Shown: in pieces, positions 21,549-22,931 of the stretch
Position numbering within the stretch: the first letter of the stretch is position 1
Layout of the letters: each line of letters opens with the position of its first letter
NCBI RefSeq assembly: GCF_050920415.1
Contig: NZ_CP169309.1
Source of the DNA: Escherichia coli
Lineage (GTDB): Bacteria > Pseudomonadota > Gammaproteobacteria > Enterobacterales > Enterobacteriaceae
Direction: 5' to 3' (one strand)
Length of the DNA stretch: 64,000 nucleotides
Made by a program: the position numbers and the translations under genes
The notes under the pieces: generated by a model
What the model was told of the DNA's origin: nothing
Database searches by the model: none
The model's input: the letters and a program-made list of their open reading frames with translations, nothing else

Positions 21549-22931
21549 TCAACCTGCCACACTCCCCCACACCAGTTGCCCTTTATGGAACGTTGCGGTT
21601 CTCGGCGAGATACGCGCCACCGCCTCGGCGGAACAGGAGGCGTCCACCAGCACAAAGCTGGCGTCATCCTGCGCTTTGGGCCAGACGCGCTCGCCTTTTT
21701 CGTTGAGCGGCAATACATCACCAGTGGCTAAAAACAGCGAGCGGGAGAGGTTCTGTTCGTTAGGACGAATATAGAGTTGCGCATACAGATTGGCTTTTTC
21801 CAGCATGTCACCCAGGCCGTAAGGCGACCAGTGGTCGATAACGCTGTCGGTGCCAGTCATGACTTTTACACCTTTGTCGTGCAGCTGTTTGAGTGGCATA
21901 TGCAACGTGCCAATCGGTACCGTCGAGGCAATAGAAATTTGCTGCGCCGCCATCCGGTGCGCCAGTTCATCTACCTGTTGCTCATTGAGCGTTGCCAGCG
22001 CAAAGGCGTGGCTGATGGTCAGTTTGCCCTTCAGTTGCGGCGTTTTCTCCACCATTTCAACCATATAATTGATGGCCGCCACGCCTGCCGGAGTGGTTTC
22101 ATGCAGATGAATATCGACGCCTTTGTCGTAGTCCAGCGCAATCTGGAACATGGTGTCGAGGGATTTTTCCATCGCGCCATCAACACTGGTCGGGTCCAGC
22201 CCGCCGACGTAATGCGCCCCTGCCTGCATCGCTTCACGCATCAAGGGTTCCGATTTCGACAGCAGCAAACCGTGCTGCGGGAAGGCGACGATTTCACACT
22301 CGAAGCCCGCCTGACGTCGCGCCAGCACCGCCTGCAAATTTTGCAGATTTTTCAGGCCGGAAACCGGTTCGATATTGCAGTGGCTGCGGGCAATGGTGGT
22401 GCCTTTCGACTGCAATAAATCGATCAGTTTTTCTGCCCGCTCCTGAGTGTAGGGTTGCAGTTCCGGCAGCATTTTCTGCTCAAGTTTGATCATGTCCTGG
22501 ATAGTGGTGCCTGCAGGGCGATTGAGTGAGCGCCACGGTCCGCCGTAAAAGGTTTTGTCAAGATGAATATGCATGTCGCGAGTAGTGGGCAACATAAGCT
22601 TACCGCCAGCGTCATAGTGCGGTAGCGTGGCGTCCGGATGCTGCTTGTTCTCATGTAGCGCAACAATTTTACCGTCCTGAATCTCCACGGTCTGGCGCGC
22701 CGTGCGGGTCTGTACTGCCACACCGTTTTCGTAGTCAAAACCGGTTTCCAGCAGCACGTTGTCGAGATAGTAGTGCGGGTCAGTGATTTTCATTGTGTTA
22801 TTCGCGTCGCAGTGGGTTGTGCCAGAGACCTCCGCATGGGCGAATGGCACAGAGGTACCAAACAGCGCGGCGGCGGTGACCATCTTACCGCTCTGGCTCA
22901 AAAACTCACGACGGCTATTGTTTTCTTTCAT
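21549..22931 (-). CDS. yahJ: Amidohydrolase-superfamily deaminase YahJ with twin-arginine signal peptide, 460 aa
   Basis: N-terminus MKENNSRREFLSQSGKMVTAAALFG…AHA carries a Tat motif (SRREFL); metal-dependent hydrolase HxH and DxH motifs. Confidence 0.85.
   Translation of the reverse strand: MKENNSRREFLSQSGKMVTAAALFGTSVPFAHAEVSGTTHCDANNTMKITDPHYYLDNVLLETGFDYENGVAVQTRTARQTVEIQDGKIVALHENKQHPDATLPHYDAGGKLMLPTTRDMHIHLDKTFYGGPWRSLNRPAGTTIQDMIKLEQKMLPELQPYTQERAEKLIDLLQSKGTTIARSHCNIEPVSGLKNLQNLQAVLARRQAGFECEIVAFPQHGLLLSKSEPLMREAMQAGAHYVGGLDPTSVDGAMEKSLDTMFQIALDYDKGVDIHLHETTPAGVAAINYMVEMVEKTPQLKGKLTISHAFALATLNEQQVDELAHRMAAQQISIASTVPIGTLHMPLKQLHDKGVKVMTGTDSVIDHWSPYGLGDMLEKANLYAQLYIRPNEQNLSRSLFLATGDVLPLNEKGERVWPKAQDDASFVLVDASCSAEAVARISPRTATFHKGQLVWGSVAG

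What the first reader, a model, noticed from the sequence alone, without database searches (positions are those of the whole stretch)
21549..22931. YahJ amidohydrolase carries a twin-arginine (Tat) signal peptide
The N-terminus (…NNSRREFLSQSG, hydrophobic stretch, AHA) is a classic Tat signal, so this metal-dependent deaminase-like enzyme is predicted to be exported folded to the periplasm. Its operon partners (carbamate kinase, FdrA-like) are cytoplasmic. A periplasmic first step followed by uptake of the product would be an unusual pathway layout.
Basis: seen in the sequence. Interest (0 to 1): 0.45.

Follow-up and report, generated by a model that had tools for sequence, protein, structure and literature searches.

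The report
YahJ's known Tat export signal
The E. coli amidohydrolase YahJ does start with a twin-arginine (Tat) export signal, but this is already documented and has been tested with reporter fusions, so the finding is correct and ordinary.

Summary
The window is E. coli chromosome. The ORF at 21549-22931 (-) is yahJ (460 aa). It begins MKENNSRREFLSQSGKMVTAAALFGTSVPFAHA|EV, which has a Tat motif, a moderately hydrophobic core and an AxA cleavage site. RRxF[LI] is kept in 80 of 80 orthologous loci, while the linker after the cleavage site varies freely.

The finding is already known. YahJ appears in published Tat-substrate lists. Its signal peptide (ssYahJ) has been used to export reporters and is described as accepted by both Tat and Sec.

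- The operon partners show no signal-like N-termini.
- A periplasmic first step followed by cytoplasmic steps is common in E. coli, so the layout is not unusual.
- In other genera the operon carries a nucleobase-type permease, which E. coli has lost.
- 27 of 60 fully flanked loci carry YahJ without any yah partner gene.

The new material is the context. The signal is a clade-specific addition to a mostly signal-less family related to AtzC and CodA. A Priestia homologue sits directly upstream of tatA-tatC. The ankyrin protein YahD is a widely conserved partner, and in Bacteroidota it carries its own lipoprotein signal. This suggests, without proof, that YahD is co-exported with YahJ.

The parts
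21549..22931 (-). yahJ coding sequence (460 aa plus stop), an amidohydrolase of the AtzC/CodA-like group
   Evidence: NCBIfam NF005312 scores 717 bits (cut-off 447) over residues 49-459. Pfam Amidohydro_3 and Amidohydro_1 match. The AF2 model has pLDDT 91.5.
22833..22931 (-). Signal peptide, residues 1-33 (MKENNSRREFLSQSGKMVTAAALFGTSVPFAHA), with predicted cleavage after A33
   Evidence: TatP gives the same 33-residue signal for the ExPEC allele (PMC7549933). A31 is conserved at 0.72 and A33 at 0.91. AF2 gives pLDDT below 50 for residues 1-5, 7-9 and 13-42, with a helix at residues 7-22.
22896..22916 (-). Twin-arginine motif S6-R7-R8-E9-F10-L11-S12 (AGC CGT CGT GAG TTT TTG AGC)
   Evidence: Conservation is R7 1.00, R8 0.98, F10 1.00 and L11 0.94. 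80 of 80 loci keep it.
22782..22832 (-). Hypervariable linker, residues 34-50, between the cleavage site and the fold
   Evidence: Mean conservation over residues 34-52 is 0.32, against 0.85 for the mature part. AF2 confidence is low here. Signal-less relatives begin at the equivalent of about residue 50.
21552..22781 (-). Mature catalytic domain, residues 51-460. H121, H123, H275, E278, H308 and D362 sit at the positions I assign as metal-ligand or catalytic residues.
   Evidence: These residues are invariant in the 47 non-redundant close orthologues. Across the 128-sequence family alignment, H121 and H275 are invariant and H123, H308 and D362 are at least 90% conserved. Alignments to AtzC-like chains are shown. 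Foldseek gives target-normalised TM-score (TMt) 0.84-0.88 to 6nbo/AtzC and 0.75-0.79 to CodA-type cytosine deaminases.
22941..23891 (-). yahI, a carbamate kinase. Its stop codon lies 9 nt upstream of the yahJ ATG, in the same reading frame.
   Evidence: NF009007 scores 647 bits.
23892..24044 (.). yahG-yahI gap. In 24 of 29 full clusters from other genera a 516-aa nucleobase-type permease gene sits here.
24045..25463 (-). yahG, AllG-family subunit
   Evidence: Pfam AllG, E = 4.4e-89.
25463..27010 (-). yahF, FdrA/AllF-family subunit
   Evidence: NF004760 scores 491 bits, cut-off 433.
27000..27863 (-). yahE, AllH-family subunit
   Evidence: Pfam AllH, E = 1.5e-27.
27903..28508 (-). yahD, an ankyrin-repeat protein with no signal peptide, and a widely conserved partner of yahJ
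29355..30287 (+). yahB, a LysR-type regulator divergent from the operon
   Evidence: It is conserved next to the cluster.

Best explanation
YahJ is a mononuclear-metal amidohydrolase of the AtzC/cytosine-deaminase type. It has acquired a 33-residue twin-arginine signal peptide plus a flexible linker of about 17 residues.

Proposed mechanism:
1. The protein folds and takes up its metal in the cytoplasm (inferred).
2. TatBC recognises it through S-R-R-E-F-L, and it is carried across the inner membrane (shown only for reporter fusions, in the literature).
3. Signal peptidase I cleaves it after A-H-A (inferred).
4. In the periplasm it deaminates or hydrolyses an external amino-heterocycle, probably one resembling a nucleobase or triazine (inferred from fold and neighbours; the substrate is unknown).
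5. In the ancestral Enterobacterales operon the product would enter through an AzgA-like permease. Downstream intermediates would reach the AllFGH-like carbamoyltransferase YahEFG and the carbamate kinase YahI, yielding ATP, NH3 and CO2 (inferred).

E. coli has lost the permease.
For: Signal anatomy and score lie within the range of known E. coli Tat signals.

RR, F and L are essentially invariant while the adjacent linker drifts. 80 of 80 loci from gamma- and alphaproteobacteria keep the motif.

The signal is an added module. NF005312 covers residues 49-459 only. Most full-length family representatives at 45% identity or less are about 400 aa and start directly at the fold.

Three independent genomic contexts point to export:
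- The Priestia homologue (52% identical, SRRRFI) is followed directly by tatA and tatC and faces a uracil/xanthine permease gene.
- The Caulobacter homologue sits directly downstream of a TonB-dependent receptor gene.
- A distant homologue (36% identical, with an RR signal) sits in a conserved operon of permease, ankyrin protein, AllH, AllF, AllG and carbamate kinase.

Literature:
- TatP lists YahJ as a Tat substrate (PMC7549933).
- A smaller band consistent with signal cleavage was seen in V. natriegens (PMC6788121).

Enzyme class. Partner genes. AllFGH is the oxamic transcarbamylase (PMC11326118).
Against: - Curated profile models do not reach threshold: TIGR01409 gives 13.6 bits against 16.7, and Pfam TAT_signal gives nothing.
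- ssYahJ is described as usable by both Tat and Sec. The c-region has no basic Sec-avoidance residue, and the mature N-terminus is acidic.
- I found no direct localisation of native full-length YahJ in the papers I could read. The primary paper (Tullman-Ercek 2007) is not in the library.
- Substrate, metal and the link to YahEFG/YahI are untested. 27 of 60 fully flanked loci have YahJ without those genes.
Confidence: 0.8

Rival explanations
1. The signal works mainly as a Sec signal, or as a dual signal. Native YahJ would cross unfolded through SecYEG and fold and acquire metal in the periplasm, and the RR pair would be incidental.
For: [quoted passage not shown] There is no basic residue in the c-region, and the mature N-terminus is acidic. 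Bacteroidota homologues carry SRK[GD]FLK rather than RR.
Against: A Sec signal needs only a positive n-region. Here R7, R8, F10 and L11 are conserved at 0.94-1.00 and are kept in 80 of 80 loci, while neighbouring positions vary. The h-region is only moderately hydrophobic (1.49). The Priestia homologue is followed directly by tatA-tatC.
Confidence: 0.12
2. The N-terminus is an uncleaved signal anchor. [quoted passage not shown]
For: Gorla et al. 2009 provide the precedent; only the reference was seen here. The long flexible linker (residues 34-50) could act as a tether. The Priestia homologue has no obvious AxA site.
Against: A-x-A at positions -3 to -1 is conserved (A31 0.72, A33 0.91). TatP predicts cleavage after AHA. 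A smaller processed band was seen for an ssYahJ fusion. There is no lipobox: the nearest Cys is residue 41 and is only 0.38 conserved.
Confidence: 0.07
3. The motif is vestigial or a chance match, and YahJ works in the cytoplasm alongside YahEFG and YahI.
For: Most of the wider family is signal-less. All operon partners appear cytoplasmic. Profile models are sub-threshold.
Against: The motif and the AxA site are under strong purifying selection across two proteobacterial classes. The signal works in reporter fusions. The tatAC and TonB-receptor contexts also argue against this.
Confidence: 0.02

Closest known systems
The published set of E. coli Tat substrates (SufI, CueO, AmiA/AmiC, MdoD, FhuD, YcbK, EfeB and others)
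   Same: It has the same tripartite signal with S/T-R-R-x-F-L and an AxA site. YahJ is itself listed in these sets (PMC7549933; PMC3027627), and its score falls within their range.
   Different: The last motif position is S rather than K. The enzyme has no complex redox cofactor. The substrate is unknown. The signal is reported to be promiscuous with Sec.
Organophosphate hydrolase (phosphotriesterase) of Brevundimonas diminuta, a Tat-targeted amidohydrolase-superfamily enzyme (Gorla et al. 2009; reference seen)
   Same: It is a metal-dependent (beta/alpha)8 amidohydrolase-superfamily enzyme sent across the inner membrane by a twin-arginine signal.
   Different: It belongs to a different subfamily (binuclear phosphotriesterase against the mononuclear AtzC/CodA type). 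[quoted passage not shown]
AtzC (N-isopropylammelide isopropylaminohydrolase) and CodA (cytosine deaminase)
   Same: These are the closest solved folds and sequences: 6nbo at E = 4e-44, with target-normalised TM-score (TMt) 0.84-0.88 for 6nbo/AtzC and 0.75-0.79 for CodA-type enzymes. The HxH, His, His and Asp residues are conserved.
   Different: The solved chains are about 400-430 residues and align only to the mature part of YahJ. YahJ adds a 33-residue signal and a linker. Identity is only 21-29%, so substrate specificity cannot be transferred.
phoD-tatAd-tatCd of Bacillus subtilis, where a substrate gene lies beside a dedicated TatAC (Pop et al. 2002; reference seen)
   Same: In Priestia the YahJ homologue is followed directly by tatA and tatC.
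   Different: The substrate enzyme is different. In E. coli, yahJ is not linked to the tat genes.
AllFGH oxamic transcarbamylase plus AllK carbamate kinase of E. coli (PMC11326118, PMC9843812)
   Same: YahF, YahG and YahE match the AllF, AllG and AllH families, and YahI is a carbamate kinase. The three-subunit-plus-kinase arrangement is the same.
   Different: This is a paralogous cluster with an unknown carbamoyl substrate. It carries an exported amidohydrolase and an ankyrin protein that the all cluster lacks. The AllFGH papers do not mention the yah genes.
Tat 'hitchhiker' pairs (HybO-HybC, DmsA-DmsB; Rodrigue et al. 1999; reference seen)
   Same: YahD is a signal-less protein conserved beside a protein that carries a Tat signal. 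Engineered ankyrin-repeat proteins (DARPins) have been used in Tat hitchhiker co-translocation assays in E. coli (PMC6478843).
   Different: No YahD-YahJ complex has been shown, and my fused-chain AF2 test was uninformative. This is a hypothesis only.

Membership tests
Twin-arginine (Tat) signal peptide | Consensus S/T-R-R-x-F-L-K at the boundary of the n- and h-regions | tested here: met
   S6-R7-R8-E9-F10-L11-S12. Only the last position differs. It is the only such ORF in the window.
Twin-arginine (Tat) signal peptide | Tripartite layout: a polar n-region, a moderately hydrophobic h-region, and a c-region with small residues at -3 and -1 | tested here: met
   The signal is 33 residues. The h-region M17-F30 has mean hydropathy 1.49. 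A31-H32-A33 fills positions -3 to -1. TatP gives the same boundary in PMC7549933.
Twin-arginine (Tat) signal peptide | Match to curated profile models (TIGR01409, Pfam PF10518) | tested here: inconclusive
   TIGR01409 gives 13.6 bits against a cut-off of 16.7, at E = 0.067. Pfam gives no TAT_signal hit. A matrix from 22 E. coli Tat signals gives 20.2, inside the leave-one-out range of 6.0-36.6.
Twin-arginine (Tat) signal peptide | The RR pair is under selection in orthologues | tested here: met
   R7 is conserved at 1.00 and R8 at 0.98, against 0.32 for the linker. 80 of 80 loci keep it.
Twin-arginine (Tat) signal peptide | Export depends on TatABC and on the RR pair | not testable with these tools
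   PMC6788121 states that ssYahJ mediates periplasmic translocation and is recognised by both Tat and Sec, citing Tullman-Ercek 2007. That primary paper is not in the library.
Amidohydrolase superfamily, AtzC/CodA-like mononuclear group | HxH on strand 1, plus His, His and Asp metal ligands and a catalytic Glu | tested here: met
   H121, H123, H275, E278, H308 and D362 are invariant in 47 close orthologues. In the 128-sequence family alignment H121 and H275 are invariant and H123, H308 and D362 are at least 90% conserved. The assignment of these residues to ligand roles is mine, by analogy with CodA/AtzC.
Amidohydrolase superfamily, AtzC/CodA-like mononuclear group | Family model above its cut-off, and a matching fold | tested here: met
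   NF005312 scores 717 bits against 447. The AF2 model has pLDDT 91.5. Foldseek gives target-normalised TM-score (TMt) 0.84-0.88 to 6nbo/AtzC.
Amidohydrolase superfamily, AtzC/CodA-like mononuclear group | Bound metal and hydrolytic activity on a defined substrate | not testable with these tools
   I found no biochemical data on YahJ. PMC7549933 lists its function as unknown.
AllFGH-type carbamoyltransferase plus carbamate kinase module (operon partners) | Three subunits of the AllF, AllG and AllH families next to a carbamate kinase | tested here: met
   YahF matches NF004760 at 491 bits, cut-off 433. YahG matches Pfam AllG at 4.4e-89. YahE matches Pfam AllH at 1.5e-27. YahI matches NF009007 at 647 bits.
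Tat hitchhiker pair (YahD with YahJ) | The partner lacks any signal and is conserved beside the signal-bearing subunit | tested here: met
   YahD has the maximal possible ORF and no signal-like N-terminus. YahD is present in 33 of 60 fully flanked loci. It is also present in the Erwinia and Pragia loci, in one metagenomic contig and in two Microvirga loci. It is present in the distant operon L094 and in two Bacteroidota loci.
Tat hitchhiker pair (YahD with YahJ) | The two proteins form a complex and are co-exported | tested here: inconclusive
   A fused-chain AF2 run with 17 paired sequences gave pTM 0.46, and even the YahJ fold was degraded. Co-export cannot be tested with these tools.

The most novel reading that the evidence does not exclude
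YahD, the ankyrin-repeat protein encoded first in the operon, may be the physical partner of YahJ outside the cytoplasm.

- In Bacteroidota the YahD homologue (40% identical) carries its own lipoprotein signal: 95 of 105 full-length homologues have a hydrophobic N-terminus with a Cys. It sits beside a YahJ homologue whose motif is relaxed to RK.
- In Proteobacteria YahD has no signal, and YahJ keeps a strict RR in 80 of 80 loci.

The most novel reading is that proteobacterial YahD folds in the cytoplasm, binds YahJ and rides through Tat on YahJ's signal. That would make it a natural ankyrin-repeat hitchhiker, and it would explain why this otherwise simple hydrolase uses Tat.
Probability: 0.2. 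Interest if true: 0.55.

Novelty: already known. Interest (0 to 1): 0.18.

Why it matters
The Tat signal on YahJ adds nothing to current knowledge. It is in published substrate lists and has been used as a biotechnological export tag.

The yah cluster remains functionally uncharacterised; it is listed among the dense clusters of uncharacterised E. coli genes in PMC11551758. The context gathered here gives testable leads:
- The enzyme is an exported version of a mostly signal-less deaminase family.
- The ancestral operon includes a nucleobase-type permease that E. coli has lost.
- The operon pairs an AllFGH-like carbamoyltransferase with a carbamate kinase.
- The ankyrin protein YahD is a cross-phylum partner that is itself exported in Bacteroidota.

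Together these point to scavenging of an external amino-heterocycle for nitrogen or ATP, and possibly to a new natural Tat hitchhiker pair. A yahJ deletion was mildly outcompeted in an ExPEC mouse model (competitive index 0.70; PMC7549933).

Tried and rejected
1. Curated Tat profile models. TIGR01409 was sub-threshold and appeared only when the first 50 residues were scanned alone. Pfam TAT_signal did not hit. I treat this as a limit of short-profile sensitivity, not as evidence against the signal.
2. Primary papers. Tullman-Ercek 2007 and Fisher 2008 are not in the library. I rely on PMC6788121's description of them.
3. First scoring matrix. It was over-fitted to its training set, so I redid it with leave-one-out scoring and stronger pseudocounts.
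4. The ABC transporter and ASCH gene directly downstream of yahJ (16153-21280) as the 'uptake step'. Rejected: no SBP or ASCH homologue lies beside yahJ in any other locus examined. At least 80% of the stretch is found in only 2213 of 5426 E. coli genomes. The binding protein is of a sugar/AI-2 type.
5. The AllFGH and AllK papers. They do not mention the yah paralogues.
6. Fused YahD-linker-YahJ AF2 model with 17 paired sequences. It gave pTM 0.46 and the YahJ part lost confidence, so it says nothing about a complex.
7. Literature on YahD function. Nothing relevant was found.
8. PDB sequence search for the 516-aa permease. No match.
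Full report
**What the region is.** A 3-kb query spanning yahJ and yahI (window 21000-24000) is 100% identical to the chromosome of E. coli strain MFDS1022581, and 4961 of 5426 complete E. coli genomes hold at least 80% of it. RefSeq annotates 21549-22931 (-) as yahJ, 'amidohydrolase family protein'. It is the last gene of a run on the minus strand:
- yahD (27903-28508, ankyrin repeat)
- yahE (27000-27863)
- yahF (25463-27010, FdrA-like)
- yahG (24045-25463)
- yahI (22941-23891, carbamate kinase)
- yahJ

The LysR gene yahB is divergent upstream.

The maximal ORF starts at an ATG and encodes MKENNSRREFLSQSGKMVTAAALFGTSVPFAHA|EVSGTTHC....
- S6-R7-R8-E9-F10-L11-S12 matches the Tat consensus except at the last position.
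- The h-region M17-F30 is only moderately hydrophobic (1.49).
- A31-H32-A33 fits the -3/-1 rule for signal peptidase I.
- No other ORF in the window has such a motif near its start.
- With a matrix built from 22 published E. coli Tat signals, YahJ scores 20.2. The leave-one-out range of those signals is 6.0-36.6, median 24.8.
- The curated short profiles are below threshold: TIGR01409 gives 13.6 bits against 16.7, and Pfam TAT_signal gives nothing. I record this as a caveat.

**Conservation shows the motif is selected.**
- Among the 120 closest database homologues (70-98% identity, many genera) nearly all begin with xRRxF[LI]. The few exceptions are start-truncated or fused entries and one with RH in place of RR.
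- In 47 non-redundant orthologues, conservation is R7 1.00, R8 0.98, F10 1.00, L11 0.94 and A33 0.91. The 19 residues after the cleavage site average 0.32 and the mature enzyme 0.85.
- A scan of one genome per species returned 80 loci (54-99% identity) from Enterobacterales, Rhizobiales, Paracoccus, Halomonas, Shewanella and others. All 80 keep xRRxF[LI].

**The signal is an added module.**
- The NCBIfam family model covers residues 49-459 only.
- In an exhaustive search of 50%-identity representatives, the nearest full-length ones (62%, 52%, 49%, 51%, and also 36% and 33%) have RR signals. One at 47% has SRKGFLK.
- The large majority at 45% identity or less are about 400 aa and start directly at the first beta strand, 'YWLxNVRLEtGF'.
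- AF2 agrees. Most of residues 1-48 are low confidence, with a short helix at 7-22. The fold from about residue 50 onward has block-mean pLDDT of 87-99, mostly about 98. Overall pLDDT is 91.5 and pTM 0.87.

**What the enzyme is.**
- The best solved relatives are an AtzC-like N-isopropylammelide isopropylaminohydrolase (6nbo, E = 4e-44), AtzC, and cytosine deaminases.
- Foldseek gives target-normalised TM-scores (TMt) of 0.84-0.88 for 6nbo/AtzC and 0.75-0.79 for CodA-type enzymes.
- H121, H123, H275, E278, H308 and D362 are invariant in the close orthologues. Across the 128-sequence family alignment they are invariant or at least 90% conserved, except E278, which the summary does not list. I assign these residues to metal-ligand and catalytic roles by analogy with CodA and AtzC.
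- It is therefore a mononuclear-metal aminohydrolase acting on some amino-substituted heterocycle. Identity of 21-29% is too low to name the substrate.

**It is already known.**
- A TatP screen of an ExPEC genome lists YahJ among 25 Tat substrates with the same 33-residue signal. A yahJ deletion had a competitive index of 0.70 in mice (PMC7549933).
- A comparison of Salmonella and E. coli Tat substrates lists b0324 yahJ, 'putative deaminase' (PMC3027627).
- Eichmann et al. used ssYahJ as an export tag in E. coli and Vibrio natriegens. [quoted passage not shown] 2007 and Fisher et al. 2008 (PMC6788121).
- I could not read those primary papers. From memory, the 2007 study tested signal-peptide fusions to GFP, MBP and PhoA. 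I did not verify what it reports for full-length YahJ.

**Independent genomic support for export.**
- In Priestia (Bacillaceae) the 52%-identical homologue (signal SRRRFI) is followed directly by tatA and tatC. A uracil/xanthine permease gene lies divergently upstream. This echoes phoD-tatAdCd of B. subtilis (reference seen).
- In Caulobacter the homologue lies immediately downstream of a TonB-dependent receptor gene.

**The pathway-layout claim.** YahD, YahE, YahF, YahG and YahI have no signal-like N-termini, so that part of the reading stands. Three points weaken the word 'unusual'.
1. Periplasmic scavenging steps that feed cytoplasmic pathways are common in E. coli. TynA, AnsB, UshA, GGT and PaoABC are examples from my own knowledge.
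2. The uptake component exists elsewhere. In 24 of 29 full clusters from other genera, a 516-aa protein with about 13 predicted membrane spans lies between yahG and yahI. It has no Pfam or NCBIfam model. Source databases name it xanthine permease or AGZA-family permease. E. coli has only 153 bp at that position.
3. The coupling is not universal. Of 60 loci with full flanks, 29 have yahD plus yahI, 4 have yahD only, and 27 have none of these partner genes. The subset of the 27 that I inspected mostly shows an adjacent LysR-type regulator.

The coupling can still be ancient. A homologue only 36% identical to YahJ, with an RR signal, sits in a conserved operon of permease (70% identical to the Chania one), ankyrin protein, AllH, AllF, AllG and carbamate kinase, followed by the YahJ-like gene. 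PucR- and LysR-type regulator genes lie next to it.

YahF, YahG and YahE match the AllF, AllG and AllH families. In the allantoin pathway these three subunits form the oxamic transcarbamylase that yields carbamoyl phosphate for a carbamate kinase (PMC11326118, PMC9843812).

**Best explanation and rivals.**
- Most likely (about 0.8): YahJ folds and binds metal in the cytoplasm, is exported by Tat, is cleaved after AHA, and acts in the periplasm on an external amino-heterocycle.
- The Sec or dual-route rival (about 0.12) rests on the reported promiscuity of the isolated signal. It is hard to reconcile with invariant RR-x-F-L.
- A membrane-tethered form (about 0.07) and a vestigial motif (about 0.02) are less likely.

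**A side observation that may be new.**
- The ankyrin gene yahD is a widely conserved neighbour of yahJ. In the genome scan it is present in every locus that has yahI and in four more that lack yahI. It also lies beside yahJ in the Erwinia and Pragia loci, which lack yahEFGI.
- It also lies just downstream of yahJ in one metagenomic contig and in two of three Microvirga loci, and in the distant operon L094.
- In Bacteroidota the YahD homologue (40% identical, E = 1e-46) starts with a lipoprotein-type signal such as MKTLLLLSLMGLFPSC. Of 105 full-length homologues, 95 have a hydrophobic N-terminus with a Cys.
- It sits beside a YahJ homologue in both Bacteroidota loci examined. In both, the enzyme's motif is RK rather than RR.
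- In Chryseobacterium a second, signal-less YahJ paralogue lies two genes away.
- So the ankyrin partner appears to work outside the cytoplasm where it has its own signal. In Proteobacteria it has none, and there the enzyme keeps a strict RR.
- Co-export by the Tat hitchhiker route would fit this pattern. Engineered ankyrin proteins have been used in such co-translocation assays in E. coli (PMC6478843).
- My fused-chain AF2 test was uninformative. I give this reading about 0.2.

**Verdict.** The finding itself is already known, so its interest is low.

Noticed in passing
window 23892-24044 (yahG-yahI gap); L007 7365-8915; L094 2228-3763: In 24 of 29 full yah clusters from other genera, a 516-aa protein with about 13 predicted membrane spans lies between yahG and yahI. 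E. coli has only a 153-bp gap there. The protein is 64-91% identical across Proteobacteria and Firmicutes yet matches no Pfam or NCBIfam model. Source databases call it xanthine permease or AGZA-family permease.
   Followed up: yes
window 27903-28508 (yahD); L091 5135-5803; L095 6001-6669; L094 3783-5039: The ankyrin-repeat protein YahD is a widely conserved neighbour of yahJ across phyla. In Bacteroidota its homologues carry a lipoprotein-type signal (95 of 105), while proteobacterial YahD has none. This suggests a possible Tat hitchhiker relationship with YahJ, which remains untested.
   Followed up: partly
L008 6374-10438 (Priestia): A 52%-identical YahJ homologue with an RR signal is followed directly by tatA and tatC. 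A uracil/xanthine permease gene (NF008502) lies divergently upstream. This looks like a substrate gene beside its own TatAC, as with phoD-tatAdCd.
   Followed up: partly
L095 4654-8897 (Chryseobacterium camelliae): Two YahJ paralogues lie side by side. One has a signal (SRKDFLK; 443 aa) and lies next to the lipoprotein ankyrin gene. The other has no signal (412 aa) and lies after an AraC regulator gene. The same chemistry may therefore be run in both compartments.
   Followed up: no
L093 2672-7458 (Caulobacter sp. RHG1): The YahJ homologue lies 30 nt downstream of a TonB-dependent receptor gene. This fits a periplasmic enzyme acting on a substrate imported across the outer membrane.
   Followed up: no
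window 16153-21280: A sugar/AI-2-type ABC transporter (binding protein, ATPase, two permeases) and an ASCH-domain gene lie between yahJ and yahK. At least 80% of this stretch is found in 2213 of 5426 complete E. coli genomes. No homologue of its binding protein or ASCH gene lies beside yahJ in other genera, so it is a variable insertion unrelated to the yah operon.
   Followed up: yes
window 22929-22943 (yahI stop to yahJ start): yahI and yahJ are in the same reading frame, separated by TAA plus 9 nt (TAA GGA CGT AAG ATG). A few single-contig database entries of 779-780 aa read through as YahI-YahJ fusions (...IIKTYGRKMKENNSRREF...). In these the Tat signal would be internal. They are probably rare mutants or sequencing errors.
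   Followed up: partly
L003 and L004 (Acinetobacter sp.): A signal-less homologue (44-45% identical, 410 aa) lies beside a Bmp-type ABC transporter, an amidase gene and an isochorismatase gene. This fits a layout in which the substrate is taken up before a cytoplasmic enzyme acts on it.
   Followed up: no
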